From Patescibacteria group bacterium (GTDB lineage Bacteria > Patescibacteriota > Minisyncoccia > Phycocordibacterales > JAKFXT01), in the NCBI GenBank assembly GCA_021731245.1, contig JAKFXT010000015.1, forward strand, positions 14,889-78,888: a DNA stretch of 64,000 nt, written 5' to 3'. This document shows, in pieces, positions 4,016 to 53,805 of this stretch. Both the position numbers and the translations under genes were made by a program. Positions within the stretch are counted from its first letter, which is position 1; each line of letters opens with the position of its first letter. The notes below the pieces were generated by a model. That model did not search any database and was not told the DNA's origin. It was given only the letters and a program-made list of their open reading frames with translations.

Positions 4016-4876
4016 TTATTTAGTAATTAGAATGCAAGCAATGGCGGAGGCAGCAGCCGGCAAACTCGAGTCTTTTTTTGCCCGATCAGAAGTTATATAT
4101 TCAGCAGTAGAAGATGGTTCCTCGGCACATATTTGCCAGCCATTATTAGTATACTTATAAAATGTAATTTGGCATTTGTCGGTACCAAAAGTAGATATTA
4201 TTTTATTTATCATACTTTTATCAAACTGTTGGAAAAAACCGAAATTGTGATATTTCCCAAAGGGAACAGTTATTAATAGTTTTCCGTTTGGTTTTAACAC
4301 CCTTTTTAATTCATTTATAGCAATAAGATAATCTTCGGTTTTATTTTCTTTATATTTGGAATTGCTGGTATAAATTTCCGTATTATCCATACCAATGTGT
4401 TCAATGGTAGAAATAGAAGTGATTACATCAAAGTAGTCAGAAGTGAATGGAAGATTACGTAAATCATCAAATATATAAGATATACCTAGATGCCAAAAAC
4501 AATTTGCCTCCGGATTTAAAGTAACAATTGTAGTTTTTTTATTCTTTATTTTTTCATGCGAAAGTATCGCTTCGAAGTTTAAAGCTGACCCAGCATCCAA
4601 CAACTTCGCTGGTTCTTTGTTTATGTGAGATAGCATCCAAGGGTATTCAACAACGCGCTCATCTATTCCAATGCCAAAATTTGCCGGTAAGAGATCTTTT
4701 TTTATGAAAAGCTGAATAATTTCGTGGTCATTGATATATTTTTTAATCATTTTCCACTTATATTCAAAATACCCTCGACGCCATGGCTTTTGCCCATGCA
4801 ATTTATAGGAGATAAGGTTCTTTTGGTAAATCAAGTTTTTAGCAAGACGAAGGGATAGGCCGATTAGAGATTTCAT
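4016..4876 (-). CDS. putative SAM-dependent methyltransferase-like protein
   Basis: LLDAGSALNF ... FDVITSISTIEHIG ... LKPNGKLLITVP is a methyltransferase-like motif order. Confidence 0.5.
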   Translation of the reverse strand: MKSLIGLSLRLAKNLIYQKNLISYKLHGQKPWRRGYFEYKWKMIKKYINDHEIIQLFIKKDLLPANFGIGIDERVVEYPWMLSHINKEPAKLLDAGSALNFEAILSHEKIKNKKTTIVTLNPEANCFWHLGISYIFDDLRNLPFTSDYFDVITSISTIEHIGMDNTEIYTSNSKYKENKTEDYLIAINELKRVLKPNGKLLITVPFGKYHNFGFFQQFDKSMINKIISTFGTDKCQITFYKYTNNGWQICAEEPSSTAEYITSDRAKKDSSLPAAASAIACILITK

Positions 4877-4991
4877 ATATGTATTATAATATACAGTGTA
4901 TCTATTATTAACTTTCTAGATTAAGTGACAAAGTGGCCATGTGTATGGTTATATACTAATTATAAGAAAAATTTTTAAATAATTCATAATT

Positions 4992-5945
4992 ATGCGTTGG
5001 AAAGTCCTCATGTCTAGTTCTCATATGCAGTCGCGGCTGAGCCAGTACCGTGATCTTTTGGAGAAAAATAATATAGAAGTTGATATTATTACTCGTCCAC
5101 AGTTCGTACCAGAAATTGATCTGCTCGATATTGTAGAGCCTTACCACGCTATTGTTTGTAGTGATGATGAGATTACTGATCGAGTCTTTACAAAAGCCAA
5201 GAATTTAAAATTAATTTCCAAATGGGGTGTAGGTATAAATAGTATTGATCTTGAGTCATCTAAGCGGCACGGTATCACTGTCTATAATTCACCAGGGGCT
5301 CTTTCAGAAAGTTGCGCAACGATGATTTTTTCTTATATGTTGCATTTTGCCCGCCGAGCAATTGATCAAGACAAATCAATTCGTAATGGTGAATGGAAAC
5401 ATGTACCGGGTATCGCACTTGCTGGTAAAACCATTGGTATTATTGGTGTTGGAGGTAATGGAAAGGCCGTGGCTAAACGAGCTGCCGCTTTTGATATGAA
5501 TATTTTAGGTTGTGACATTAAGGAAATAGACCCTGTTTTTTTACAAACCTACGGTATGTCCATGACTAGTAAAGAGGATCTTTTATCCCAGTCTGATTTT
5601 GTGGTACTAGAGCCAGATTTAAATCCTACAAGCTTCCATTTGATAGGGGCTACTGAACTTTCTCTAATGAAACCAACTGCCTTTCTTTTGAACACTTCTC
5701 GTGGTCCTGTTATTGATGAAAAAGCTTTAGTTAATGCTTTGCAGAATAAAATGATTGCTGGGGCGGGATTAGATGTTTTTGAAATTGAGCCACTACCAGA
5801 AAATAGCCCCTTACGCCAAATGGACAATGTCATTCTTACTCCTCACAACGCTTATAATACAGTCGAAGCAGAAAATTATGTCCATGACAATACAATAAAG
5901 AATTTAATTGAAGGTCTTAAAAAAGTATTGTCCAAACAAAAATGA
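4992..5945 (+). CDS. D-isomer-specific 2-hydroxyacid dehydrogenase (PGDH/glycerate dehydrogenase family)
   Basis: Rossmann motif GKTIGIIGVGGNGKAVAKRA. The catalytic-domain signature LLNTSRGPVIDEKAL and the C-terminal LTPHNAY are also present. Confidence 0.8.
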   Translation: MRWKVLMSSSHMQSRLSQYRDLLEKNNIEVDIITRPQFVPEIDLLDIVEPYHAIVCSDDEITDRVFTKAKNLKLISKWGVGINSIDLESSKRHGITVYNSPGALSESCATMIFSYMLHFARRAIDQDKSIRNGEWKHVPGIALAGKTIGIIGVGGNGKAVAKRAAAFDMNILGCDIKEIDPVFLQTYGMSMTSKEDLLSQSDFVVLEPDLNPTSFHLIGATELSLMKPTAFLLNTSRGPVIDEKALVNALQNKMIAGAGLDVFEIEPLPENSPLRQMDNVILTPHNAYNTVEAENYVHDNTIKNLIEGLKKVLSKQK

Positions 5946-24743: not shown

Positions 24744-26642
24744 ATGAAGGTCTCTTTTAAAAAACTTTTGCTAGTTGGTGAGCTCCCAATTTGGTTGGAT
24801 ACTATTTTTATTACTTTCACCGTAGCTGTATTGATTATTCGCTACGCAAATATTTTTGCAGAAAATATAATAAATCCATTTCTTATTGGAATTTCCATAA
24901 TAGCCAACATTCCTGTTGCAATAGCCGTATTCAATTCTTTTAAAGAAAGGCGTATTACAGCAGATATTCTTGCGGGAATTGCTTTAATTTTTTCTTTTAT
25001 AGCGCAGGAATGGGCATCAGCCGCCTTTATCACCCTGATGCTTGCTTTTGCAAGAATGCTTCATACTTGGAGTGATTCTAAAGCCAATAATGCACTAAAT
25101 AGTTTAGCAAAACTTAAACCTAAGTATGCAAGGGTAAGACATGGAAACACAATAGTAGAGATTCCAATTAATAAAGTTAAATTGGGAGATACTGTGGTTG
25201 TTTCTCTAGGAGAAAGTGTTCCGGTAGATGGAAAAATTATTGAAGGTTCAGGTCTTCTCAATCAATCCTCTATTACAGGAGAGTCTATTCCCGTTTATAA
25301 AAAAGAAGAAGATAAAATCTTGAGTGGTTCAATTGTTGTACAAGGAAATTTTGAAATTGTGGCCCAAAAAGTGGGGAAGTACTCAACAATAGAAAGAATA
25401 ATTTCTTTAGTGGAGTCAGCGGCAGAGCAGAAAGCACCAATTGTTAAAATTGCAGATAAATTGTCGGCTTACTATATTGGAGGGGCTTTTTTGGTTTCGA
25501 TTATTGTTTATGCTGTAAGTCAGGATGTCTCTTTGGTTCTAAGTATTCTCTTGGTTGTTTGTGCTGACGAAATAGCAGTGGCGATTCCACTGGCATTCTT
25601 AATGGCAGTAGCAATTTCAGCTAAAAGAGGAGTCATAATAAGAGGCGCTGAATTTTTGGAAGGTCTTTCTCGACTTAATACTTTGGTTGTAGATAAAACA
25701 GGGACATTAACTATGGGAAAGCTCGGTGTTGCGGGTTGTGTAATAGGTAAAGGAATTGATAGTGATGATTTTTTTGAAGCGGCATCTTTGACTTCTTCTA
25801 TTTCAAAACACCCAGCCTCTCGTGCAATTGAGAAATATGTTTCTAAATTTACTAAGCAGAAGTCGCCGGACTCATATGAAGAAAAAGTAGGAAAAGGAGT
25901 TGTTGCACGTTTTAAAGGTGGACATTTCTTTTTAGGGAGAAGAAGTTTCATGGAAGAGATGCATGCGTCACTCTCTAAAGATTTATTGGAGCGTATGAGG
26001 GAAGCAGAACTCCTTGGTTTTAATATAACCTATATCGGTAAAGGAAAAGAAGTTCTAGGATTTTTTATTGTTTCTGATGAATTAAAGAAAAATGTTAAGA
26101 ACGACATTGATCATTTGAAATTATTGGGTGTTAAAGAAATTTTGATGCTAACAGGAGACAATGCAATGGTGGCTCACCGTATTGGACTTGAAGCCGGCGT
26201 TACACAAGTTAGGGCGAATTTGTTGCCAGAAGATAAAGTTAAAGAAGTTGAAAAGTTTTTACACAAAAGTCCTAAAGATATGCTTGCAGTAGTGGGTGAT
26301 GGAGTGAATGATGCGGCTGCATTAAAAAGAGCGCCGATCGGGATTGTTATGGGAGCCGTCGGCTCTGATGTGTCAATTGAGGCAGCTGATGTTATTTTGA
26401 TGCACGATGATTTCTCGAAAATTCCTGAAACGGTAGATTTGTCACGTTTTGTTATGCAAATTGCAAAGCAAAACTTTATGTGGTGGATTGTTATAAATGG
26501 AGTCGGTCTTTACCTAGTTTTTACCCATGTGCTGAACCCAACTTCTGCCGCTGCTTTTAATTTCCTGACGGACTTTATACCACTTCTCAATGCCTTAAGG
26601 GTTATGAGATTTAAAAGGTCACCAATCTTTCGTCAATTGTGA
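24744..26642 (+). CDS. P-type cation-transporting ATPase (P1B-like; no N-terminal metal-binding domain)
   Basis: DKTGTLT phosphorylation motif, MLTGDN and VGDGVNDAAAL hinge motifs. TM helices flank the cytoplasmic domains. Confidence 0.8.
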   Translation: MKVSFKKLLLVGELPIWLDTIFITFTVAVLIIRYANIFAENIINPFLIGISIIANIPVAIAVFNSFKERRITADILAGIALIFSFIAQEWASAAFITLMLAFARMLHTWSDSKANNALNSLAKLKPKYARVRHGNTIVEIPINKVKLGDTVVVSLGESVPVDGKIIEGSGLLNQSSITGESIPVYKKEEDKILSGSIVVQGNFEIVAQKVGKYSTIERIISLVESAAEQKAPIVKIADKLSAYYIGGAFLVSIIVYAVSQDVSLVLSILLVVCADEIAVAIPLAFLMAVAISAKRGVIIRGAEFLEGLSRLNTLVVDKTGTLTMGKLGVAGCVIGKGIDSDDFFEAASLTSSISKHPASRAIEKYVSKFTKQKSPDSYEEKVGKGVVARFKGGHFFLGRRSFMEEMHASLSKDLLERMREAELLGFNITYIGKGKEVLGFFIVSDELKKNVKNDIDHLKLLGVKEILMLTGDNAMVAHRIGLEAGVTQVRANLLPEDKVKEVEKFLHKSPKDMLAVVGDGVNDAAALKRAPIGIVMGAVGSDVSIEAADVILMHDDFSKIPETVDLSRFVMQIAKQNFMWWIVINGVGLYLVFTHVLNPTSAAAFNFLTDFIPLLNALRVMRFKRSPIFRQL

Positions 26643-26688
26643 TCTTAAGTCAAGATGCCGATTTTCGTTTTTAATATATAATAGCCAA

Positions 26689-27366
26689 ATGAATAATGGT
26701 TTTTATTGGATAATAGGCGTAATAGTTATTTTTATAGGGCTACTCGCAGGAGCGGCTTTATATAAAAATAAAAGTGCTACAGGACTTCCTGTTCCTACAG
26801 AAGAAATTTCTCTTTCTGATTGGACAGTTGGTACAAGCACTTCTGTTGTTTTAATGGAATACAGTGATTTCCAATGTCCTGCATGTAGAAGCTATTTTCC
26901 AATGGTTGAACAAATTGTTGCAGAATACAAAAATCGTATTACTTTTGTTTATAGACATTTTCCTCTACCACAACACTTGAATGCCATGGCCGCATCTCGT
27001 GCGTCAGAAGCTGCGGGGCGACAAGGAAAGTTCTGGGAAATGTATGTAATGCTTTTCCAAAATCAAGACGCTTGGGCGACTGTTTCAAAGCCACTTGATA
27101 AATATAAAGAATACGCGACGGAGTTAGGCCTTGATATTGAAAGATTTGAAAATGATTACAATGACCCAGCACTTAAAGGTAAGGTTCAGAATGATTATAA
27201 AAGTGGTGTGAAATTGGGAGTGGAAGCAACTCCAACTTTTTTCATAAACGGTAAGAAGATTAGTAATCCTCAAGGAAATACAGTGGAAGAAATAATGGCA
27301 GGATTTAGAAAAGAATTAGACGCGGCATTTATTCCCAATGTACAAGTGACATTGCCAGTTCAATAA
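26689..27366 (+). CDS. DsbA-like thiol:disulfide oxidoreductase (membrane-anchored)
   Basis: N-terminal TM helix, then thioredoxin-fold CxxC (FQCPACRSY), then the DsbA-type helical insertion. Confidence 0.75.
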   Translation: MNNGFYWIIGVIVIFIGLLAGAALYKNKSATGLPVPTEEISLSDWTVGTSTSVVLMEYSDFQCPACRSYFPMVEQIVAEYKNRITFVYRHFPLPQHLNAMAASRASEAAGRQGKFWEMYVMLFQNQDAWATVSKPLDKYKEYATELGLDIERFENDYNDPALKGKVQNDYKSGVKLGVEATPTFFINGKKISNPQGNTVEEIMAGFRKELDAAFIPNVQVTLPVQ

Positions 27367-27372
27367 GAGTTT

Positions 27373-27849
27373 ATGTCAGGAGATATGAAATTGCTTACAT
27401 TGGTTGTTGTTCATCAGCATCCCAAGGTTCTTTTGGCTATGAAAAAAAGAGGTTTTGGCGCGGGGCGCTGGAATGGTTTTGGTGGGAAAGTTAATCAAGG
27501 TGAAGAAATAGAAGAGGCAGCCAAAAGAGAGATAAGTGAAGAGTCGGGGATTGAAGTAGAAAATTTAGAAAAATTAGGAATTTTGAATTTTGAATTTAAG
27601 GTGGATGGAAAACTTTTACAAGTTCATATTTTTAAAGCTCGTGATTATAGAGGGGAGCCAAAGGAAACGGAAGAAATGAATCCGAAATGGTTTTTTGTTG
27701 ATGAAATTCCTTTTATGGAAATGTGGGCAGCTGATAAATTTTGGATACCATTGTTTTTAAAGGACAGGAAGTTCAAAGGTAAAATTCTTTTTGGAGAAGG
27801 GGATGTTGTTTTAGAGAAAAATGTTGAAGAAGTGTCTTCTCTAACTTAA
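27373..27849 (+). CDS. NUDIX hydrolase
   Basis: Nudix box GGKVNQGEEIEEAAKREISEESGI. Confidence 0.8.
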   Translation: MSGDMKLLTLVVVHQHPKVLLAMKKRGFGAGRWNGFGGKVNQGEEIEEAAKREISEESGIEVENLEKLGILNFEFKVDGKLLQVHIFKARDYRGEPKETEEMNPKWFFVDEIPFMEMWAADKFWIPLFLKDRKFKGKILFGEGDVVLEKNVEEVSSLT

Positions 27850-27861
27850 CTATAATTATCT

Positions 27862-28503
27862 GTGATACAAAATCTACTTACTTTTATTGAAAACATTATT
27901 ATTACCCATGGGGCCTGGGGTATTTTCTGGGCTGGATTTTTGGAAGAAATTTTAGCCTTTGTTCCTTCAACTTTAGTAATAATGACAAGTGGGTTTTTTA
28001 TGCTTGGAAATGATCCAGTAATTTTTTCTTCTTTTTTAAAATTATTTATGAAAGTTGTTATTCCAGTTTCACTGGGGCTTACTCTTGGATCACTGGTTGC
28101 TTATTACATTTTCTATTTTATTGGAGAACCAGCCATTAAAATTTTCGGTAAATATGTGGGAGTTAGTTTAAGTGATATAGAAAAAATAAAAGAAAGAACT
28201 TCAAAAGGGGTTAGAGACGAGGTTCTTATTTTTTTAGCTCGTGCCACTCCATTTTTTCCCATAATGCTCGTTAATGTATTTTGTGGCTTGATTAAATATC
28301 CTCTGACTAAATTCATTTACATCTCATTTCTGGGTGTTTTAGTAAGAGCTACAATTGTAGGTTTCTTGGGCTGGCAACTCGGTACTTTTTATAAAGATAT
28401 TTCTTCGAAGTTTCAAACAGTGGAGACAATCTTCGCGCTAATTATAGTTTTTGGTATTTTTTATTTAATATATAAAAACAGAAATAAAGGAAATGAAAGA
28501 TAG
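27862..28503 (+). CDS. DedA-family membrane protein
   Basis: TM topology and conserved G..F.E....F.P motifs (FWAGFLEEILAFVPS) of the SNARE-associated/DedA family. Confidence 0.7.
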   Translation: MIQNLLTFIENIIITHGAWGIFWAGFLEEILAFVPSTLVIMTSGFFMLGNDPVIFSSFLKLFMKVVIPVSLGLTLGSLVAYYIFYFIGEPAIKIFGKYVGVSLSDIEKIKERTSKGVRDEVLIFLARATPFFPIMLVNVFCGLIKYPLTKFIYISFLGVLVRATIVGFLGWQLGTFYKDISSKFQTVETIFALIIVFGIFYLIYKNRNKGNER

Positions 28504-28558
28504 TGAAACAGGTAAAATTGTCTAAAAACGGTCTATTTTTCATGATATAATTAGAAAT

Positions 28559-46895: not shown

Positions 46896-47417
46896 TTACT
46901 TCGCCGCCAGAACATCCTTGTCGATCTGCAGTAGCTTGGCGTGCTTTTCGACGCTTGTGTAGTTCATCGCGCCGATTGGCATTTGCCGTATTTGCCGAAG
47001 ATCACTGACCGTCAGCGCCCAGAAGTAGGGATAGAAGAACTGGCGGTTTTGATCTCCCACCTTATCCGCGAACTCCTTGAGCGCGTAGGTCTTGCCGTCG
47101 ATTCGAACACCTGGCCTTTCCTTCGAGATGTCGACCTCGAGGCTGACCAGAACATATGTAGCGAAAACGCTCCGCATGTTTTCTTTTTCTCGGACGAGGA
47201 AGCCTTCGTAGCTCCGGCAGTAGGTGCAGTCCCCACTGCTCAAGTAGATGAACAGCTGCTTTTTTTCTTCTTTCGCCGTCTTGATTGCGGACGTGAGGTC
47301 GAAGACCTTGCGTCCAGATTCAATCGCAGGCACGACCTTGATCGGCTTGAAATCTTCCGGCATACCTGCGAACGCCGGAAAAACAACTGCAACCAGCAGA
47401 AGCAAAAATGCTTTCAT
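46896..47417 (-). CDS. secreted thioredoxin-fold protein with CxxC (CTYC) motif; G+C-rich, foreign-composition gene
   Basis: Signal peptide MKAFLLLLVAVVFPAFAG and redox motif LSSGDCTYCRSYEG. The ORF is GC-rich with G/C-ending codons. It has its own consensus promoter, a 5' hairpin, an AAGGAG RBS 8 nt before the ATG, and a terminator. Confidence 0.6.
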   Translation of the reverse strand: MKAFLLLLVAVVFPAFAGMPEDFKPIKVVPAIESGRKVFDLTSAIKTAKEEKKQLFIYLSSGDCTYCRSYEGFLVREKENMRSVFATYVLVSLEVDISKERPGVRIDGKTYALKEFADKVGDQNRQFFYPYFWALTVSDLRQIRQMPIGAMNYTSVEKHAKLLQIDKDVLAAK

Positions 47418-47536: not shown

Positions 47537-49216
47537 TTATTTCTTCTCTAAGCAATAAATTTCATTAGCAAATGTTGGAACAAAAAATCTTTTTGTTTTT
47601 TCATTGTAAGCAATTTTATTAACAATTCTTTCTACTGATTGGAATATGCCCGTGTTTTTTCCAGTTTGAGTATTAATTTCATACAATCTAGCATCATTTG
47701 ATCCAATATATAATTTGCCTTCTATTACTGTAGGACTAGCAAAAATTCTTCCTTGCGTCTCGAATTTCCATATTAACTTAAAATTATCCAAATCAAGACA
47801 GTAAAGATGTTTGTTAAGAGACGCAAAGAAAATTTTGTTTTCGTAAATAAAAGGAGATGAATATATGACCATTCCTGTATCATAAGTGTGGGCAACATCG
47901 CCTGTTTTTATTTTTAAAATATAAAGTTTCCCATCATGTGAACCGAATGTTACAAGCCCTCTTTTTTCATCAAAGGCAAAGGAAGCTTTTACCTCGCCCC
48001 CTGTTTGGAATTTCCAAACTATTTCGCCTGTTTTTGCTTTAAAACAATAAACTCCACCATCGTTTGAACCGATTACAACTAACTTATCTTTTTTGTAATA
48101 TGCGGGGGAACCGTGTGTTAAACCGTCAAATTTATGTTCCCAGCACTTTTTTCCTGTTTCAGCATTAAGTGCCACAATACCACCTCTTTTTTTCCAAAAT
48201 CCAAATTCAAGTCCAACATAAACAAGTTCCAAATCTTCTGCTATAGCGGGGGAGGAGCCTATCCAATCAGCCTCCATAAATATCCATTTTTTCTTACCGG
48301 TTTCTTTGTCTAATGCATAGAAATTGCCATCATAGGCCCCAAAATAGACTGAACCTTTATACAGAGATGGGGAAGAAAAAATGCTTTTTCCCTGTGCTCC
48401 AAATCCCAGAATTTTAAAACGCCAAACTTCTTTGCCGTCTTCTTGATCAAGCGCCCAGAAAGTTCCATTATCACTACCAAAAAATATTTTATTTTCATCA
48501 ATTGCTGGGGCTGATTTTGGAACAACGTATAAATAAGTTGGATTGGGTATTTTTACTTGCCATTTGATTTCAAATGGGAAGTTTATTTTTTCTTTATCTT
48601 TTTCAATTAGGTTTGAAATATCCAAAGAGTCTTTGAAATCATCAAGTGTAAATAAAGAAAATATTTTTATCCCCTTGTCATTTAAATATTTATAGTAGGA
48701 AATATCACGAAAACGTAAAACGGCGCAAACAGCAACAACTTTTTTTCCAAGAGACTCTAGAATTTCTATTTGCCTTACGAATCCAAGCCCCCTGTTCATC
48801 AAATCGTCTACCAAGACAACGGGGTCGTTTGTTAGGTTTCCCTCAATCATATTTTGGAGATCAGTTTTCTCGCGAGACTTACGAATATAGAAACCAGATA
48901 TATCTTTTTCTTTTGATTTTAAAACTAGGGAAGTAATAATAGGAATTGAGGCTGTTTCTAATCCACCAATTTGAAATTTAGGTAAATCTTTTAGTTTTTC
49001 TAAAAATAAATCAGAAATTTGGTTTAAAATTTCAGCATTAAAGAGAATTTTTCTAAAATCAAACACCCAGTCAACCTTTCTGTTGTTTTCATCGATGATT
49101 TTAGCAACATCTTTACTTATAAAGACTTGATTTTCTATTATTTTCTTTAAGTTTGGTAAAGTTTTATCCACAAAATTGAAAGCGCAATAGGTTCCCCTAG
49201 AGCTATACTTTAACAA
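47537..49216 (-). CDS. fusion protein: type I phosphoribosyltransferase domain + PQQ-like beta-propeller
   Basis: N-terminal PRTase PRPP-binding motif VVLVDDLMNRGLGF. The C-terminus has at least 6 PQQ/BamB-like repeats (G.FYALD..TGK..W.F). Confidence 0.6.
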   Translation of the reverse strand: MLKYSSRGTYCAFNFVDKTLPNLKKIIENQVFISKDVAKIIDENNRKVDWVFDFRKILFNAEILNQISDLFLEKLKDLPKFQIGGLETASIPIITSLVLKSKEKDISGFYIRKSREKTDLQNMIEGNLTNDPVVLVDDLMNRGLGFVRQIEILESLGKKVVAVCAVLRFRDISYYKYLNDKGIKIFSLFTLDDFKDSLDISNLIEKDKEKINFPFEIKWQVKIPNPTYLYVVPKSAPAIDENKIFFGSDNGTFWALDQEDGKEVWRFKILGFGAQGKSIFSSPSLYKGSVYFGAYDGNFYALDKETGKKKWIFMEADWIGSSPAIAEDLELVYVGLEFGFWKKRGGIVALNAETGKKCWEHKFDGLTHGSPAYYKKDKLVVIGSNDGGVYCFKAKTGEIVWKFQTGGEVKASFAFDEKRGLVTFGSHDGKLYILKIKTGDVAHTYDTGMVIYSSPFIYENKIFFASLNKHLYCLDLDNFKLIWKFETQGRIFASPTVIEGKLYIGSNDARLYEINTQTGKNTGIFQSVERIVNKIAYNEKTKRFFVPTFANEIYCLEKK

Positions 49217-49239: not shown

Positions 49240-49662
49240 ATGAATGAGAGAATAAAATACATATTTATAGTATCTGCCACCTTTTTGTTAACGCTCGTTT
49301 TGATTTATGGGACACCCCTTAGATACACAGATTTATTAGAGCCTAAAATTAAAGATGTTGATCCATCTGTTTTTTATCAAAAATATTCTCAAAATCCAGA
49401 TAAATATGTGTTTATAGATGTGAGACCCTTGGAGGCTTATAAAAATATACACGCGAAAGGATCGGTAAGTAAGCCACTCCATACTTTATATGATGAGCGT
49501 CATACATTGCCCAAAGATGATAAAGAAATTATACTAATATGTAGTGGAGGTCGTGCGTCAGGAGTAGGTTTTTTCTATCTTCAGCATTACGGCTTTACTA
49601 ACATAAGTCGTGTAGAAGGAGGAATAGAGAATTGGATAGAGAAAGGATTACCTACTGAATAA
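49240..49662 (+). CDS. rhodanese-domain protein (membrane-anchored)
   Basis: N-terminal TM and the rhodanese active-site loop ILICSGGRAS (Cys-x5-R). Confidence 0.7.
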   Translation: MNERIKYIFIVSATFLLTLVLIYGTPLRYTDLLEPKIKDVDPSVFYQKYSQNPDKYVFIDVRPLEAYKNIHAKGSVSKPLHTLYDERHTLPKDDKEIILICSGGRASGVGFFYLQHYGFTNISRVEGGIENWIEKGLPTE

Positions 49663-49671
49663 TATTTACAT

Positions 49672-49926
49672 ATGAAGAAAATATACAAAATTACGTTTTA
49701 TATTTTAACAACGATTGTGGTATTACCTGTCTTTTCATTATTTATTGATAATCAAAAAGACGATTCTGTTTTTGTAAACACTGTCTCTGCCGATGTCCCG
49801 GCTGTTGTTGTTCCACCTCAACCAGCCCCCTACGATTATTCGGGTGGTGGATCATCAGGTGATGGTTCTTGTGATAGTGGTGGAGCTGATGGTGGTGGTG
49901 GAAGCGGTTGTGATGGTGCTTGGTAA
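49672..49926 (+). CDS. small secreted/anchored Cys- and Gly-rich peptide, paralog 1
   Basis: N-terminal hydrophobic segment, ADVP motif, then the G/S/D-rich tail GGGSSGDGSCDSGGADGGGGSGCDGAW. Confidence 0.5.
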   Translation: MKKIYKITFYILTTIVVLPVFSLFIDNQKDDSVFVNTVSADVPAVVVPPQPAPYDYSGGGSSGDGSCDSGGADGGGGSGCDGAW

Positions 49927-49957
49927 GTATTTTTTATATTAAAAATTTATAGTAGAT

Positions 49958-51058
49958 ATGGATACTGAAAAACAAGACGATTTAGGAAAGTTGATAAAAA
50001 TTGGACTTCCCATTTTAATTTTAGGAGCTTTAGTTTTTGTTTTTTTTATAAATAGAGATTATTTTTTTAAAAAAGATGGAGTAGTAATGAAAGGTGCATC
50101 AAGTAGACAAGATTTGTCAAAGAAGAATAGTGATTTTGCTAAAGCAGAGTCACTCCTTAGAAATAATCCTAGCGAAGCTTTAATTTCATATAAAGAGGCT
50201 TTAGGTAATGCGTCTTCTCAAGAAGATTCAGATAGTATTTCTTTTAGAATAGCACTCGCAACATATAGAAGTGGTCAATTAAGTGAAGGTATTAATCTGT
50301 TTAAGAAACTTGTTTCTTCAAAGGATGTCTCTAATGTAACAAAAGCATATTCTATACAGTTTTTTGTTCAAGAATATTTTGCTACTAATAGTCAATCTTT
50401 GTTTGATTTAATATTCTCTGATGATCCATACAAGAGTTTTCTAAAAGATAATAATAAAGAAGGTGCAATAAGAGAGTTGGTTGAGTATGGTAAATCACTT
50501 CTTCCATTACCGTTACTAACCCTTAGATCAGCAGATTATAAAGCAAAAGATCTTATTATCTTCAAAAATGAATCAGATATAACCAAAGAAACACTTCTTT
50601 CAGGGATAAGTAATGATTTGAATATGGCGGAGGCGGGTATTGAAGCTCTAAGAGGAACACCAAATATAGATCAGTTGCCTGTTATATACAATAGAAAAAT
50701 GGTCCTTTTTACAAATTTAAAGCGAGCAGGATACATAATGGGGGATCCGGCAGATTCTTATGAAAAAGGAGTTAGTTTCTCTAATCTTTACAATGACAAG
50801 GAAACTTTGATGTTCTTACATTTAAATTACGCTATTTATTTGTTAATAGAAAATTCAGAAGCTAATGAAGAAAAGATACGTTCTATCTTAAAAAATATAG
50901 TTGAAGAAAAAGATAGAGACCTTAATGTTTTTCAATATTTAAAAAATAAAGCAAGTTCTAATAAGAATACAGATGAGTTTGTTAAGTTTATAATGGTTTT
51001 GGTTGACGTAGACGAATCATTCAAAGATTTACTCACGACATTAGGTTGGAAGTTCTAA
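49958..51058 (+). CDS. hypothetical membrane-anchored protein (helical repeat)
   Basis: One N-terminal TM helix, then an alpha-helical TPR-like domain. It is flanked by the two small peptide genes. Confidence 0.45.
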   Translation: MDTEKQDDLGKLIKIGLPILILGALVFVFFINRDYFFKKDGVVMKGASSRQDLSKKNSDFAKAESLLRNNPSEALISYKEALGNASSQEDSDSISFRIALATYRSGQLSEGINLFKKLVSSKDVSNVTKAYSIQFFVQEYFATNSQSLFDLIFSDDPYKSFLKDNNKEGAIRELVEYGKSLLPLPLLTLRSADYKAKDLIIFKNESDITKETLLSGISNDLNMAEAGIEALRGTPNIDQLPVIYNRKMVLFTNLKRAGYIMGDPADSYEKGVSFSNLYNDKETLMFLHLNYAIYLLIENSEANEEKIRSILKNIVEEKDRDLNVFQYLKNKASSNKNTDEFVKFIMVLVDVDESFKDLLTTLGWKF

Positions 51059-51063
51059 TCAAA

Positions 51064-51297
51064 ATGAAGAAAACTATTAAAAAAGCCATTTATATTATTG
51101 GTTTGGTTTTTGTTTTCCCAATGATTTCAATTTTTCTTAACAAAGAAGATAAAGTTGTTGACGTTGTAAAAATTGTCTTAGCGGATGTGCCAGTTAACAA
51201 TAATGTTCAAGATTATTATGGGGATTCCTCTAGTCTAGGGGGTGGTTGCGATGGGGCTGGGAGTGATGGTGGAAGTGGCTGCGACGGTTCTTGGTGA
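51064..51297 (+). CDS. small secreted/anchored Cys- and Gly-rich peptide, paralog 2
   Basis: MKKTIKKAIYIIGLVFVFPMISIF ... ADVP ... GGGCDGAGSDGGSGCDGSW. Same architecture as 49672..49926. The start was taken at the internal ATG, 4-nt coupled to the upstream gene. Confidence 0.5.
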   Translation: MKKTIKKAIYIIGLVFVFPMISIFLNKEDKVVDVVKIVLADVPVNNNVQDYYGDSSSLGGGCDGAGSDGGSGCDGSW

Positions 51298-51370
51298 TTA
51301 TTTTAGAAAAAAGAAAAGGCGCGATGGACTTTTTCAAGTCGTTGCGCCTTTTTGTTTGCCGTCCAAACAC

Positions 51371-52000
51371 TTACTTCATTTCACTTGTTTCACCACAGGC
51401 AATGAGTTGATGTATTTCTTCCGGACCGCCGCTACGATCGACGAATTTCATCATTACGTAACGTTTGATCTTGGAGTCAGTCGGAAACCAAGCGATTTGC
51501 ACCATGCTACTGGAGTAACCACTTGAGAGTCGGTAGGTCGTTACAACCTCGATTTTTATGGTGTCGAAAATACCAGCCGGAACTCTCACACCTTTTTCAA
51601 AGACGGAACTCGCCACGCTACTTTCAGCGTAGACCGTCACTCCCTGTTGCCGCGGATGGGGGTAGCTAAACTTTCCTCCCCCTGTAATTCCAGCCTTTAG
51701 CGGGTAATTCGGCATTACAAAAGCAGGTGAATACTTGATTCCATCACGCTCTAAAAGCTGATGGTCGTTGTTGTATATCCTAGTTGATAATCCTCGCCCA
51801 TCTTTCACTAAGAGCTTAAATCCGCCATCAGGAAAAATTTCGACAAACTCCTGTTGGACGATCCCAGCGACACGAGAATTACTCTCATAGTCGCATCGAT
51901 AACCCTTGTTGTAATCCGGTTTTGGAAATTCTTGCGACAGGGAGTTTCCAACAAGGAATGTAAGGAAAAGGCTCAGAATCAAAGCCACCGGCGTTTTCAT
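51371..52000 (-). CDS. secreted hypothetical protein; G+C-rich, foreign-composition gene
   Basis: Signal peptide MKTPVALILSLFLTFLVGNSLSQE. The start was set at the ATG that has a TAAGGAG RBS 9 nt upstream; the ORF track's longer start lacks an RBS. It has its own promoter, a 5' hairpin and an imperfect terminator at about 51300-51350. Confidence 0.55.
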   Translation of the reverse strand: MKTPVALILSLFLTFLVGNSLSQEFPKPDYNKGYRCDYESNSRVAGIVQQEFVEIFPDGGFKLLVKDGRGLSTRIYNNDHQLLERDGIKYSPAFVMPNYPLKAGITGGGKFSYPHPRQQGVTVYAESSVASSVFEKGVRVPAGIFDTIKIEVVTTYRLSSGYSSSMVQIAWFPTDSKIKRYVMMKFVDRSGGPEEIHQLIACGETSEMK

Positions 52001-52062
52001 CGAAGAGCGCTCCTTAATCTTTGAGTTTGGGGGCAAAATTGCCCATAAATCAATCCAATTCG

Positions 52063-52144: not shown

Positions 52145-52846
52145 ATGAGTAGGAAAGTTTTACATATTTTCACTTTTTTTGTTTTGGCGGTAGTTGTTTT
52201 AAGTATTTCAAGAGAAAACGTTTATTTTAGTATAGGGAGCTATTATTTTGGAGGTGGGGGATATGATTTAAAAAAGGCAGAAAAATATTTTAGGAAAGTT
52301 GTTTCAATAGAAGAAGATTATCCAAGAGTTCATTATCAGTTGGCAAGAATCAATTTTTTGAATGCTAGGTTTGCTGAAGCGAAATCGGAAATAAATAAAG
52401 AAATAAGTTTATATCCAGATTTCCATAAATCTTATTATATGGAGGGTTTGATTGCAGGCTATGCAGGGGATTTTGATACTGCAATTAATGGTTTTAAAGA
52501 ATTTCAAAAGTACGATTCTTTTAATTGGGCAGCGTACAATGACTTGTCTTGGATATATTTTCAAAAAGGAGATTTTGAATTAGCTAAAGATGTGGCAATT
52601 GACGGTTTAGAACATGCTCCAAATAATCCTTGGCTTTATAATTCTTTGGGTATTGCGCTACTTAATTTAAAAGAAATGTCTGAAGCGAAGATTGCTTTTG
52701 AAAAAGCGCTCCAAAATATTGATAAAACAACACCAGAGCAGTGGGGCAAGTCCTATCCAGGGAACGACCCTAAAATATATAAAGATGGTTATTTGGCCAC
52801 CAAAGAATCAATAGTTTATAATCTGGAGCTTTTAAAGCAATACTAG
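52145..52846 (+). CDS. TPR-repeat protein with N-terminal membrane anchor
   Basis: TM helix followed by about 5 TPR-like repeats (W..Y.L..AL...G.Y..A). Confidence 0.6.
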   Translation: MSRKVLHIFTFFVLAVVVLSISRENVYFSIGSYYFGGGGYDLKKAEKYFRKVVSIEEDYPRVHYQLARINFLNARFAEAKSEINKEISLYPDFHKSYYMEGLIAGYAGDFDTAINGFKEFQKYDSFNWAAYNDLSWIYFQKGDFELAKDVAIDGLEHAPNNPWLYNSLGIALLNLKEMSEAKIAFEKALQNIDKTTPEQWGKSYPGNDPKIYKDGYLATKESIVYNLELLKQY

Positions 52847-52908: not shown

Positions 52909-53805
52909 ATGGAGAAAAATTTAACCTCTTTTGCTAAGAATAATTTATACGCTTTAATATTTTTATTTGTTTTGGGCATATCTCTTTTGATTGGAACTTT
53001 AATTAAAAATGGTGGAGCCCCCATTAAGTCTTCAGAGTTTTCTTTTTATAGCTTATCTCCAAATGGTGAGCTCGGTGGGCGTAGCGTACCAGCTTCATGC
53101 CCATCTGATTTACACGATGACCCTACTTATGGAACAGCGTGCCAGTCGGCCCCGAATTCTTGTGGAGCAAGAGGTAATGGAACTTATCAATGTGGAGGAG
53201 TTTGTAATGCGACAGCTCCTGTTGCGGCAAATAATTATGGACAAGCTTGCTCATCAACAAATGCATGTGGCATAAGTGGGTCAGGAACATACAGCTGTTC
53301 TGGCACTTGCAGTGCCAACCCAGCGTTGCCTGCAGGATACGGACAATATTGCCAATCGCAACCAAATAATTGCGGTGTTTTTGGTCAGGGATACAGAGGA
53401 TGTAATGGAAGTTGTCCCGCCATTAGACCAGCTGATGATACAGATTGTAGTGATGTAGAAATTGAAGTTGGAACGACAACGACTATTACTATCCCACCTA
53501 ATTGTGAAATCGGAGGACCTGATTGTGAGGTTGTGACTACAATAATTCCACGCGACTCAGAGTTTGTTTCCCCTGGATCATCCTGTTCGATTTATTGGGA
53601 TGCAAGTCCTGCAACAAGATGTACTATAGTGGGACCAAGTGTAAATAGGCAAAATGAGCCACCATCAGGGTTGTTTGTAACACCAAGAATAGGAGTAGAT
53701 ACTCCAGGATCAGCCACTTACACCATAACTTGTTATAACGGAAACACTCTTGCTGCAGAGAGAAGATTCTCTTGTCGCTTGAATCCTAATTTCCAAGAAG
53801 TATAA
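52909..53805 (+). CDS. secreted/anchored cysteine-rich repeat protein
   Basis: N-terminal TM, then at least three repeats of C(Q/S)S.PN.CG..G.G(T)Y.C.G.C.A, followed by a C-terminal Cys-containing beta-rich region. Confidence 0.5.
   Translation: MEKNLTSFAKNNLYALIFLFVLGISLLIGTLIKNGGAPIKSSEFSFYSLSPNGELGGRSVPASCPSDLHDDPTYGTACQSAPNSCGARGNGTYQCGGVCNATAPVAANNYGQACSSTNACGISGSGTYSCSGTCSANPALPAGYGQYCQSQPNNCGVFGQGYRGCNGSCPAIRPADDTDCSDVEIEVGTTTTITIPPNCEIGGPDCEVVTTIIPRDSEFVSPGSSCSIYWDASPATRCTIVGPSVNRQNEPPSGLFVTPRIGVDTPGSATYTITCYNGNTLAAERRFSCRLNPNFQEV

What the first reader, a model, noticed from the sequence alone, without database searches (positions are those of the whole stretch)
49672..51297. Twin small Cys/Gly-rich peptides (84 and 78 aa) bracketing a membrane helical-repeat gene: possible secreted or modified peptide system
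Two paralogous peptides (N-terminal hydrophobic leader/anchor - ADVP - Gly/Ser/Asp-rich tail ending GCDGAW / GCDGSW, each with exactly two Cys in a GCDG context) flank a 366-aa membrane-anchored protein. The layout resembles precursor-peptide plus maturation/immunity arrangements (bacteriocin/RiPP-like), or a pair of disulfide-stapled surface peptides serviced by the nearby DsbA/VKOR genes. No known family is recognised from the sequence.
Basis: inference. Interest (0 to 1): 0.6.

Follow-up and report, generated by a model that had tools for sequence, protein, structure and literature searches.

The report
Exported Cys-pair peptides with TPR partner
The two small peptide genes are real members of an unannotated peptide family from tiny "candidate phyla radiation" bacteria that always sits next to the same membrane-anchored repeat protein; in some relatives it lies beside enzymes that make antibiotic-like thiazole peptides, but those enzymes are missing from this window.

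Summary
pepA (49672-49926) and pepB (51064-51297) are paralogues flanking a 366-aa membrane-anchored TPR solenoid. They are co-oriented with an upstream membrane-anchored rhodanese and followed by a strong terminator hairpin.

A peptide of the same design lies directly upstream of the TPR homologue in all 12 distinct loci I could read. The TPR family has 470 clusters, all unannotated. The design is a Lys-rich N-terminus, a 19-aa hydrophobic helix, a 14-31-aa spacer, [A/V/S]xA|DxP, then an acidic Gly/Ser/Asp tail, usually with two Cys. A profile built without the window peptides picks out only pepA and pepB among 976 window ORFs.

Three distant loci carry a SagD-type YcaO (PxPxP C-terminus) plus a SagB dehydrogenase in the same cluster. 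That is the azole-peptide (LAP) machinery already noted in CPR genomes. The window has neither enzyme in 64 kb, and the closest relative has neither within 10 kb either side.

The "twin" layout is unique to this window.

Best reading: a YcaO-less variant of a CPR-wide exported precursor-peptide system. The TPR protein would bind the peptide outside the cell. The Cys chemistry here would be thiol-based (disulfide or persulfide). Function is inferred, not shown.

The parts
49672..49926 (+). pepA, 84-aa precursor peptide. The leader is aa 1-40 (49672-49791): MKKIYK, a hydrophobic helix at aa 7-25, a spacer, then VSA. The predicted processing site is A40|D41. The core is aa 41-84 (49792-49923): DVPAVVVPPQPAPYDYSGGGSSGDGSCDSGGADGGGGSGCDGAW. 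It has net charge -6, no Lys/Arg and 2 Cys.
   Evidence: ORF and sequence. Paralogy with pepB. Family table. Leave-out HMM E = 1e-10 to 1.6e-15. An identical ORF is present on an independent Logan contig.
49958..51058 (+). 366-aa TPR-family protein. It has an N-terminal membrane helix (about aa 13-31) and an all-alpha TPR-like solenoid that is probably extracytoplasmic. It is the obligate genomic partner of the peptide.
   Evidence: The family has 470 50%-identity clusters, nearly all 350-400 aa. The AF2 model has pLDDT 93.5 and is all helical. The family profile matches consensus TPR proteins at E = 5e-32. Structural neighbours are peptide-binding TPRs, all weak with E >= 6e-3. Flank charges favour N-in in 81 versus 18 members.
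51064..51297 (+). pepB, 77-aa second precursor peptide, starting 6 nt after the TPR stop codon. The leader is aa 1-40 (51064-51183), ending VLA. The core is aa 41-77 (51184-51294): DVPVNNNVQDYYGDSSSLGGGCDGAGSDGGSGCDGSW. This copy is specific to the window.
   Evidence: E = 4e-8 to 4e-13. No counterpart follows the TPR gene in L002, L007, L013, L016 or L020.
49240..49662 (+). 140-aa single-domain rhodanese with an N-terminal membrane helix and the catalytic loop CSGGRAS. It is the first gene of the operon, ending 10 nt before pepA. It lacks the Cys-bearing C-terminal tail seen in its orthologues.
   Evidence: Pfam PF00581, 47.6 bits against a cut-off of 22.2. PspE/GlpE-like in NCBIfam. Orthologue comparison. 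Adjacent to the peptide-TPR pair in 8 of 12 loci.
51309..51357 (+). Strong hairpin flanked by an A-run and a U-run, directly after the pepB stop. It is a likely bidirectional intrinsic terminator that closes the rhodanese-pepA-TPR-pepB operon.
   Evidence: RNA fold of -22.9 kcal/mol, z = -3.4, with 0 of 200 shuffles folding as well. The simple terminator scan missed it.
47537..49216 (-). Cytoplasmic fusion of a phosphoribosyltransferase-like domain and a PQQ/BamB-type beta-propeller. It is transcribed divergently from the peptide operon. The true start is probably downstream of the TTG at 49216. In L018/L019 its orthologue is translationally coupled to YcaO-SagB.
   Evidence: Pfam and NCBIfam hits. 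Conserved beside the peptide operon in L002, L011, L013, L018 and L021, with a fragment in L010. Overlapping YcaO-SagB-propeller genes in L018.
46896..47417 (-). 173-aa secreted thioredoxin-like protein with a signal peptide and a CTYC motif. It is the nearest thiol-disulfide oxidoreductase to the peptides.
   Evidence: Weak Thioredoxin_7 and Thioredoxin_2 hits. Conserved at the same position in L002. In other loci a DsbA-like Thioredoxin_4 gene directly follows the TPR gene.
51371..52003 (-). Conserved secreted protein of about 210 aa with no known family, convergent on the peptide operon.
   Evidence: Homologues lie in L013, L016 and L018. The L002 copy is frameshifted. No Pfam hit.
52145..52846 (+). 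233-aa membrane-anchored canonical TPR protein. It is conserved downstream of the cluster in L002, L010, L013, L015 and L018.
   Evidence: Pfam TPR_2/8/17 hits. Neighbourhood tables.
52909..53805 (+). 298-aa membrane-anchored protein with three repeats of about 35 aa, each Cys-rich, in its extracytoplasmic part. It is an alternative client for the cluster's thiol oxidoreductases.
   Evidence: Sequence. Homologues in L002, L013 and L018.

Best explanation
pepA and pepB are two copies of a small exported precursor peptide that belongs to a conserved envelope gene cluster, apparently of CPR/Patescibacteria.

Each peptide is made with a 40-residue leader: a Lys-rich N-terminus, a signal-anchor helix, a spacer and an AxA site. 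It inserts N-in/C-out. It is probably cleaved after the AxA (A40|D41), by signal peptidase I or a dedicated protease. That would release or expose a 37-44-residue disordered tail that is strongly acidic, rich in Gly/Ser/Asp and carries two Cys near its end.

The co-transcribed 366-aa protein is a membrane-anchored TPR solenoid facing the same compartment. It most likely binds the peptide as a chaperone, receptor or presenter.

In distant relatives the same peptide-TPR module is clustered with a SagD-type YcaO and a SagB dehydrogenase. In those organisms the Cys (and perhaps Ser) residues are presumably converted to azoles, as in linear azol(in)e peptides.

This genome's clade has lost those enzymes from the locus but kept the Cys pair, the rhodanese, a secreted thioredoxin-like protein and the PRTase-propeller protein. 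I therefore propose that here the peptides are exported unheterocyclised. Their Cys pair would be handled as thiols, either oxidised to a disulfide or loaded with sulfane sulfur by the rhodanese.

Shown: the ORFs, their paralogy, family membership, the invariant peptide-TPR adjacency, the TPR fold, the YcaO/SagB association in relatives and their absence from this window.

Inferred: export, the cleavage site, TPR-peptide binding and all chemistry at the Cys residues.
For: - Family and design. Thirteen peptides from 12 loci share leader architecture, [A/V/S]xA|DxP, 0-1 Lys/Arg in the tail, net charge -3 to -14, 17-62% Gly, and Cys near the C-terminus. A leave-out HMM recovers only pepA and pepB in the window.
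- Obligate pairing. A peptide gene sits immediately upstream of the TPR gene in 12 of 12 loci, with TPR identity down to 24%. Several database TPR entries carry N-terminal 'extensions' that are out-of-frame readings of an upstream Gly-rich gene.
- TPR partner. AF2 pLDDT is 93.5. There is a TPR profile match. Nearest folds are peptide-binding TPRs such as LGN, Rap/Phr and PEX5. The family charge bias favours an N-in anchor, which puts the TPR domain outside.
- Operon. Gaps between genes are 10, 31 and 5 nt, followed by a strong terminator.
- LAP link in relatives. YcaO matches TIGR03604 at E = 1e-42 to 1e-49. SagB matches TIGR03605 above its cut-off. YcaO C-termini are PHPFP or PHPYT. The enzymes occur in three different arrangements, in L010, L013 and L018. 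LAP clusters were reported in 93 CPR genomes, with an 84-aa putative precursor (PMC7298704).
- Enzymes absent here. tblastn and HMM searches of all six frames find no YcaO or SagB. L002, the closest relative, also has none within 10 kb on either side.
- Thiol theme. A rhodanese with an intact catalytic loop is adjacent in 8 of 12 loci. Trx-like or DsbA-like genes lie in or next to the cluster. DsbA and VKOR are present in the genome.
- Not a recently acquired island. GC content is flat across the locus. The cluster lies between prfA and rpsB-tsf in the window, L002 and the distant L018.
Against: - Nothing shows expression, export or cleavage.
- The AxA site lies 14-31 residues beyond the hydrophobic segment. 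That is far for signal peptidase I, so the peptides may stay membrane-tethered or be cut by another protease.
- The window TPR protein's own flanking charges are ambiguous (3 versus 4 Lys/Arg), and so are those of the rhodanese. Their compartment is not settled.
- TPR-peptide binding is inferred from adjacency and fold alone.
- Only 12 of about 470 family clusters could be inspected, many on short contigs. The 3-of-12 YcaO frequency is therefore rough.
- YcaO/SagB could lie elsewhere in this genome. The window is 64 kb of an 84-kb contig of a MAG.
- The Trx/DsbA genes could serve the neighbouring Cys-rich repeat protein (52909-53805) rather than the peptides.
- Conserved synteny in small, vertically evolving genomes inflates apparent linkage for the outer cluster genes.
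Confidence: 0.45

Rival explanations
1. These are ordinary LAP (azole-modified RiPP) precursors. pepA and pepB would be heterocyclised in the cytoplasm by a YcaO/SagB pair encoded elsewhere in this genome, then exported and cleaved. The TPR protein would act in export, immunity or maturation.
For: - Orthologous peptides sit next to SagD-type YcaO and SagB in L010, L013 and L018.
- The L013 peptide (GSGCDGG...GGDCG) is very like the window peptides.
- The Gly/Ser/Cys-rich cores resemble microcin B17. L012 has at least 6 Cys in GCCGSCGAGSCGSGGC.
- The PRTase-propeller gene, which is co-operonic with YcaO-SagB in L018, is retained here.
- CPR LAP clusters are already reported (PMC7298704).
Against: - There is no YcaO or SagB in 64 kb, in any frame, nor within 10 kb on either side in the closest relative.
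- In every locus that has them, the enzymes are inside the cluster.
- No E1-like or ThiF-like RRE partner appears in any locus.
- Cys flanked by Asp (DCD in L007, L011 and L016) is an unusual context for cyclodehydration. This last point is from my own knowledge.
Confidence: 0.2
2. The peptides are uncleaved, membrane-tethered acidic peptides that bind a metal or display a redox-active Cys pair at the cell surface. The TPR protein would be a scaffold. There would be no RiPP chemistry in this lineage, and the YcaO association elsewhere would be a lineage-specific add-on.
For: - The hydrophobic segment is of full transmembrane length, 19 aa with mean Kyte-Doolittle hydropathy 1.4-2.4. The AxA lies far from it.
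- The tails are extremely acidic, lack Lys/Arg, and pair Cys with Asp (CDG/DCD), which are plausible metal ligands.
- The cluster looks like core genome rather than a mobile BGC.
Against: - The -3/-1/+1/+3 pattern ([A/V/S]xA|DxP) is invariant in 13 of 13 peptides, which argues for a processing or recognition site.
- There is no metal transporter or metallochaperone in the cluster.
- Cys number and spacing vary widely: 1 to at least 6 Cys, spaced 0-16 residues apart. That fits a defined metal site poorly.
Confidence: 0.15
3. This is a signalling cassette analogous to Rap/Phr (RRNPP) systems: a secreted, processed peptide sensed by its adjacent TPR receptor.
For: - A TPR protein of about 370 aa is encoded next to a small secreted peptide.
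- Rap/Phr structures are among the fold neighbours, at E = 0.06-0.08.
Against: - The TPR protein is membrane-anchored and has no HTH or phosphatase domain.
- The gene order is peptide first.
- There is no oligopeptide permease in the locus.
- The fold matches are no better than those to generic TPRs.
- The peptide tails are low-complexity and variable in length, unlike short specific pheromones.
Confidence: 0.07
4. The small ORFs are chance open frames in GGT-rich DNA or remnants of a broken larger gene.
For: Gene callers often miss or mis-frame these ORFs. In L015 the ORF was called in the wrong frame, and in L018 it was not called at all.
Against: - The architecture is conserved across 12 loci that have diverged to 24% TPR identity, including an invariant motif and retained Cys.
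- The leave-out HMM is significant.
- There are tight operon spacing and a terminator.
- No longer reading frame spans the ORFs.
Confidence: 0.01

Closest known systems
Linear azol(in)e-containing peptide (LAP/TOMM) precursors, e.g. microcin B17 McbA, and the LAP clusters reported in CPR genomes (Sharrar et al. 2020, PMC7298704)
   Same: - A small precursor with an N-terminal leader and a Gly/Ser/Cys-rich C-terminal core.
- In three related loci it is clustered with a SagD-type YcaO (PxPxP C-terminus) and a SagB dehydrogenase.
- The 84-aa size matches the putative CPR precursor mentioned in the paper.
   Different: - The window has no YcaO or SagB.
- There are only two Cys per peptide.
- The leader is a signal-anchor-like transmembrane segment with an AxA site, not a soluble RRE-binding leader.
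- No E1-like or ThiF-like partner is present.
- The conserved companions (TPR protein, rhodanese, PRTase-propeller) are not part of known LAP clusters.
- The cluster looks vertically inherited next to housekeeping genes.
Sec-dependent (signal-peptide) secreted peptides and bacteriocins
   Same: A positively charged n-region, a hydrophobic h-region, and small residues at -3/-1 (AxA) followed by Asp.
   Different: - The leaders are 40-58 aa.
- There are 14-31 residues between the hydrophobic segment and the AxA, much longer than a normal c-region.
- The mature part is low-complexity and acidic rather than an amphipathic bacteriocin.
Rap/Phr and other RRNPP peptide-TPR receptor cassettes
   Same: A TPR protein of about 370 aa is encoded beside a small exported peptide. 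Its fold is weakly similar to Rap and LGN peptide-binding TPRs.
   Different: The receptor here is membrane-anchored, probably faces outward, has no effector domain, and follows rather than precedes the peptide gene.
PspE/GlpE-type single-domain rhodaneses, and rhodanese genes next to YcaO-TfuA loci (Nayak et al. 2017, PMC5589413)
   Same: A single rhodanese domain with a six-residue catalytic loop, CSGGRA. Rhodanese genes have been noted beside YcaO loci as possible sulfur donors.
   Different: - It is membrane-anchored.
- It is linked to the peptide-TPR pair even where YcaO is absent.
- No TfuA is present.
- The companion dehydrogenase in relatives points to azoles rather than thioamides.

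Membership tests
LAP / TOMM azol(in)e RiPP system | YcaO (SagD-type) cyclodehydratase encoded with the precursor | tested here: not met
   There is no YcaO in any frame of the 64-kb window by tblastn or by an HMM built from three cluster YcaOs (best E = 3.2). It is present in the related loci L010, L013 and L018.
LAP / TOMM azol(in)e RiPP system | FMN-dependent SagB/McbC-type azoline dehydrogenase | tested here: not met
   No SagB homologue is in the window (best E = 0.66). In L010 and L013 it scores 100 and 111 bits against TIGR03605 (cut-off 78.4). L018 has a homologue by Pfam Nitroreductase and 42% identity to the L013 protein.
LAP / TOMM azol(in)e RiPP system | Precursor with a leader and a Cys/Ser/Thr-rich core | tested here: inconclusive
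   The bipartite design and Gly/Ser-rich cores are present. However, there are only 2 Cys per peptide, partly flanked by Asp. One relative, L012, has a classic poly-Cys core.
LAP / TOMM azol(in)e RiPP system | E1-like or Ocin-ThiF-like partner with an RRE for leader binding | tested here: not met
   No such domain appears in the Pfam annotations of any of the loci. The YcaOs have only an unassigned N-terminal region of 100-140 aa.
LAP / TOMM azol(in)e RiPP system | Azole or azoline heterocycles in the mature product | not testable with these tools
   This requires mass spectrometry of the native or heterologously produced peptide.
Sec signal peptide / signal peptidase I substrate | Positive n-region, hydrophobic h-region, and a c-region with small residues at -3/-1 close to the h-region | tested here: inconclusive
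   The n-region, h-region and AxA|D are present in 13 of 13 peptides. The AxA, however, is 14-31 residues past the hydrophobic segment. No signal-peptide predictor was available.
TPR repeat proteins (for the 366-aa protein) | Tandem helix-turn-helix repeats forming a solenoid, with a TPR sequence signature | tested here: met
   The AF2 model is an all-alpha solenoid with pLDDT 93.5. The family profile matches consensus TPR proteins at E = 5e-32. TPR_16 is hit in 23 of 70 members. The window protein on its own scores below the Pfam cut-offs.
RRNPP (Rap/Phr-like) quorum-sensing cassettes | Cytoplasmic TPR receptor with an effector domain (HTH or phosphatase), plus an adjacent pro-peptide that is re-imported | tested here: not met
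   The protein has an N-terminal transmembrane anchor, no effector domain and a predicted outward orientation. No permease is in the locus.
CDGSH (NEET) iron-sulfur motif | C-X-C-X2-(S/T)-X3-P-X-C-D-G-(S/A/T)-H, with 3 Cys and 1 His | tested here: not met
   CDG[AS]W only superficially resembles CDG[SAT]H. The peptides have 2 Cys and no His, and CDG is not conserved across the family. The motif definition is from my own knowledge.
Rhodanese sulfurtransferase (neighbour gene 49240-49662) | Rhodanese domain with a catalytic Cys in a six-residue loop | tested here: met
   PF00581 scores 47.6 bits against a cut-off of 22.2. The loop CSGGRA is conserved in orthologues. Enzyme activity was not tested.

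The most novel reading that the evidence does not exclude
The peptide-TPR-rhodanese module would be the core of a previously undescribed, vertically inherited envelope system of CPR bacteria. A signal-anchored, ribosomally made acidic peptide would be processed and held outside the cell by a dedicated TPR receptor, and used as a thiol, persulfide or (where YcaO/SagB are present) thiazole-bearing carrier or cofactor. It might serve sulfur or metal acquisition, or contact with the host cell, rather than act as an antibiotic. The PRTase-beta-propeller protein would be a new kind of YcaO partner, replacing the E1/ThiF-RRE component.
Probability: 0.15. Interest if true: 0.8.

Novelty: new variant of a known kind. 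Interest (0 to 1): 0.55.

Why it matters
CPR/Patescibacteria have tiny genomes and very few recognisable secondary-metabolite or surface systems. Here is a peptide family that is missing from Pfam and NCBIfam and is often missed or mis-framed by gene callers. It is paired in 12 of 12 inspected loci with one TPR protein family of about 470 sequence clusters.

That pairing gives a defined precursor candidate for the YcaO/SagB clusters that genome mining has flagged in CPR. It also shows that the peptide module persists without those enzymes, so its role is probably broader than making an azole antibiotic.

The work yields concrete, testable components for a group of organisms in which almost no envelope or host-interaction chemistry is understood:
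- a leader motif;
- a candidate processing site;
- a TPR partner;
- a rhodanese;
- a PRTase-propeller protein.

Tried and rejected
**Searches that led nowhere**
- A word-index search with pepA found only pepA itself.
- Scans of genome contigs and metagenome contigs with the three-sequence TPR alignment recovered only the one Hainich contig already in hand.
- A profile search through the word index was swamped by generic TPR candidates and returned 3 proteins.
- PADLOC gave nothing relevant.
- Rfam and tRNA scans found nothing in the locus.
- The consensus terminator scan missed the hairpin after pepB, which direct folding then found.
- Cluster look-ups gave no organism names beyond one 'Patescibacteria group bacterium'. 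The CPR assignment of the wider family therefore rests on that label and on synteny.

**Ideas considered and rejected**
- Fragments of a frameshifted gene. Rejected because of conservation as separate ORFs.
- A peptide-TPR gene fusion as a 'Rosetta stone'. The long N-termini of some homologues are out-of-frame readings of the upstream peptide gene.
- A CDGSH iron-sulfur motif.
- Type IV pilin, lipoprotein, sortase or exosortase sorting signals. None of these motifs is present in the sequences.
- A DsbA/VKOR 'service' role inferred from proximity. Those genes are 20-23 kb away.

I did not try to submit synthetic peptide-TPR fusions for structure prediction, because only window or database sequences are allowed.
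Full report
**1. What is in the window**

Four genes lie head to tail on the + strand:
- a 140-aa rhodanese, 49240-49662;
- pepA, 49672-49926, 84 aa;
- a 366-aa protein, 49958-51058;
- pepB, 51064-51297, 77 aa from its ATG.

The gaps between them are 10, 31 and 5 nt. Directly after pepB there is a hairpin of -22.9 kcal/mol flanked by an A-run and a U-run (z = -3.4). This is a likely bidirectional terminator shared with the convergent gene at 51371-52003.

pepA and pepB are paralogues (BLASTP E = 2e-7, 34% identity). At the DNA level they are not a recent copy.

- pepB is 77 aa.
- One of the four Cys is in an SCDS context rather than GCDG.
- The DsbA-like gene (26689-27366) and the VKOR gene (29010-29453) are 20-23 kb away.

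Base composition is flat across the locus.

**2. What organism**

The closest homologue of the 366-aa protein (61% identity) is labelled 'Patescibacteria group bacterium'. Its contig is syntenic with the window over about 20 kb. The shared order is rpmE, prfA, Trx-like, PRTase-propeller, rhodanese, peptide, TPR protein, a second TPR protein, a Cys-rich protein, rpsB, tsf and glycosidases. The window is therefore from a CPR bacterium. No other locus carried an organism name.

**3. The 366-aa protein**

Pfam and NCBIfam give nothing above their thresholds.

A profile search of 1.84 billion representatives finds 470 clusters at E <= 1e-3 and 295 at E <= 1e-10. Nearly all are 350-400 aa. Of 70 members scanned, 23 touch TPR_16 and none hits any enzyme family.

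AlphaFold2 with the 70-sequence alignment gives a confident all-helical solenoid behind an N-terminal helix (pLDDT 93.5). The family profile matches consensus TPR proteins (E = 5e-32). Foldseek neighbours are peptide-binding TPRs (LGN/Pins, Rap/Phr, PEX5) and LapB, all weak at E >= 6e-3.

Of the family members examined, 136 have an N-terminal hydrophobic segment. Lys/Arg are richer on the N-terminal flank in 81 members and on the C-terminal flank in 18. This suggests an N-in anchor with the TPR domain outside. The window protein on its own is ambiguous on this point.

**4. The peptides are a family, always paired with the TPR gene**

I read the neighbourhoods of twelve family members, with TPR identity to the window ranging from 61% down to 24%. 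In every one a small ORF of the same design lies immediately upstream of the TPR gene.

Public gene calls sometimes miss this ORF or read it in the wrong frame (L015, L018). Several database TPR entries have bogus N-terminal extensions that are out-of-frame readings of a Gly-rich upstream gene.

The 13 peptides share the following features:
- a Lys-rich N-terminus with a conserved aromatic residue;
- a 19-residue hydrophobic segment;
- a spacer of 14-31 residues;
- an invariant [A/V/S]-x-A | D-x(1-3)-P;
- a tail of 23-61 residues with 0-1 Lys/Arg, net charge -3 to -14 and 17-62% Gly;
- Cys near the end, usually two, spaced 0-16 residues apart. L010 has one and the partial L012 sequence has at least six.

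An HMM built without the window peptides and without their closest clade still picks out pepA (E = 1e-10) and pepB (E = 4e-8) among 976 window ORFs. The next hit has E = 0.4.

The ORFs are therefore real and conserved, and they are not fragments of a larger gene.

The C-terminal CDG[AS]W ending is confined to the window and L002 (CDSW). A second peptide after the TPR gene occurs only in the window. L015 instead has a tandem TPR copy.

**5. What travels with the pair**

- Rhodanese. A membrane-anchored rhodanese with an intact CSGGRA-type loop is adjacent in 8 of 12 loci. It lies upstream in some and downstream in others.
- PRTase-propeller. A cytoplasmic PRTase-like plus beta-propeller fusion is present wherever the contig reaches far enough (window, L002, L011, L013, L018, L021).
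- Thiol oxidoreductases. A DsbA-like Thioredoxin_4 gene directly follows the TPR gene in L010, L016 and L020 and lies near it in L011. In L011 and L016 a small multi-pass CxxC membrane protein accompanies it. The window and L002 have a secreted Trx-like protein instead.
- YcaO and SagB. Three loci carry a YcaO and a nitroreductase-fold gene inside the cluster, in three different arrangements:
  - L010, divergent from the peptide;
  - L013, downstream;
  - L018/L019, where YcaO-SagB-propeller form one overlapping operon divergent from the peptide.

The YcaOs match the SagD family (TIGR03604, E = 1e-42 to 1e-49, below the trusted cut-off). They end in PHPFP or PHPYT, the PxPxP motif that I know as typical of azoline-forming YcaOs. 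The L010 and L013 dehydrogenases exceed the SagB cut-off.

The peptide is the only small Cys-bearing ORF next to these enzymes. This fits the report of LAP clusters in 93 CPR genomes, which mentioned an 84-aa putative precursor (PMC7298704). I could not see that sequence to compare it.

**6. What is missing here**

Neither tblastn nor HMMs built from the three cluster YcaO and SagB proteins find anything in any frame of the 64-kb window. The same is true within 10 kb either side in L002. No E1-like or ThiF-like RRE partner appears in any locus.

The window rhodanese also lacks the Cys-containing C-terminal tail of its orthologues.

**7. Interpretation**

The defining LAP enzymes were tested for and are absent. 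I therefore do not file the window peptides as LAP precursors, although they clearly belong to a peptide family that serves as the likely LAP substrate in relatives.

The peptide-TPR pair is invariant and the rhodanese recurs. The flanking charges put the peptide tail outside and probably the TPR domain outside as well. Thiol oxidoreductases are present. Together these point to an exported peptide that is processed at AxA|D, bound by the TPR domain outside the cell, and chemically addressed at its Cys pair.

In this clade the chemistry would be thiol-based, either a disulfide or a rhodanese-derived persulfide. In YcaO-bearing relatives the Cys would become thiazoles before export.

I give this reading a confidence of 0.45. 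The rivals are:
- in-trans LAP maturation by enzymes elsewhere in the genome (0.2);
- an uncleaved, membrane-tethered metal- or redox-active peptide (0.15);
- a Rap/Phr-like signalling cassette (0.07);
- spurious ORFs (0.01).

**8. Novelty and score**

Azole RiPPs and Sec-exported peptides are known kinds, and CPR LAP clusters have been noted before. The new elements are:
- the definition of this peptide family and its leader and processing motif;
- its obligate TPR partner;
- the rhodanese and PRTase-propeller companions;
- its persistence without YcaO;
- its core-genome-like position between prfA and rpsB.

I rate it a new variant of a known kind, with interest 0.55.

Everything about function is inference from sequence and context. 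The decisive experiments are listed separately.

Noticed in passing
window 52909-53805 (+): A 298-aa membrane-anchored protein with three tandem Cys-rich modules of about 35 aa (pattern C..NSCG..G.GTY.C.G.C), followed by a C-terminal domain. It has no Pfam or NCBIfam hit. Homologues sit in the same position in L002 and L013, with N-terminal similarity in L018. It is an obvious alternative client for the cluster's Trx/DsbA genes.
   Followed up: partly
window 47537-49216 (-); L018 873-2501: A fusion of a phosphoribosyltransferase-like domain with a PQQ/BamB-type beta-propeller and no signal peptide. In L018/L019 it overlaps the stop of SagB, so it is in one operon with YcaO-SagB. It might be a new kind of YcaO partner. 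In the window it is retained without YcaO.
   Followed up: partly
L002 11175-11802 (-), versus window 51371-52003: In the closest relative, the orthologue of the conserved secreted protein of about 210 aa is split into 144-aa and 44-aa ORFs. This is either a frameshift or pseudogene, or an assembly error.
   Followed up: no
window 49240-49662, versus L002, L007, L011 and L013 rhodaneses: Orthologous rhodaneses carry an extra C-terminal tail of 20-35 aa ending in a Cys motif (SSLVIPC[AV][AS], QTCIL or VGCVPG). The window copy stops right after GLPTE and lacks the tail.
   Followed up: partly
L015 585-941; L018 about 4846-5145; P0064, P0034, P0100, P0042, P0116: Public gene calls mis-handle this peptide family. 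The ORF is called in the wrong frame in L015 and not called at all in L018. In several database entries the downstream TPR gene is extended upstream through an alternative frame of the Gly-rich region.
   Followed up: yes
L015 2-448 and 954-2069: Two tandem copies of the TPR-family gene flank the peptide gene. This mirrors the window's two peptides around one TPR gene and suggests that the peptide-TPR unit duplicates as a block.
   Followed up: no
L013 3153-5048; L016 154-2070: A large (about 630-aa) AMMECR1-domain protein lies directly upstream of the rhodanese/peptide genes in two loci (34% identical to each other). It is absent from the window.
   Followed up: no
L011 1109-1681 (-); L016 4362-4871 (+): A small multi-pass membrane protein with a CxxC inside a hydrophobic segment (GLSCISCGSL / GIGCLSCGSL) is paired with the DsbA-like gene. 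It has no Pfam hit. It may be a DsbB/VKOR-like reoxidase analogue.
   Followed up: no
window 24744-29453: This stretch holds a P-type ATPase (24744-26642), a DsbA-like protein (26689-27366), NUDIX, a VTT/DedA protein, an unassigned 146-aa ORF and VKOR (29010-29453), followed by an FMN reductase. These are the genome's general disulfide-forming genes, 20-23 kb from the peptides.
   Followed up: partly
window 30006-30719 (+): Two adjacent small genes both match Phage_holin_4_2, the four-transmembrane-segment holin superfamily IV (E = 7e-14 and 4e-31).
   Followed up: no
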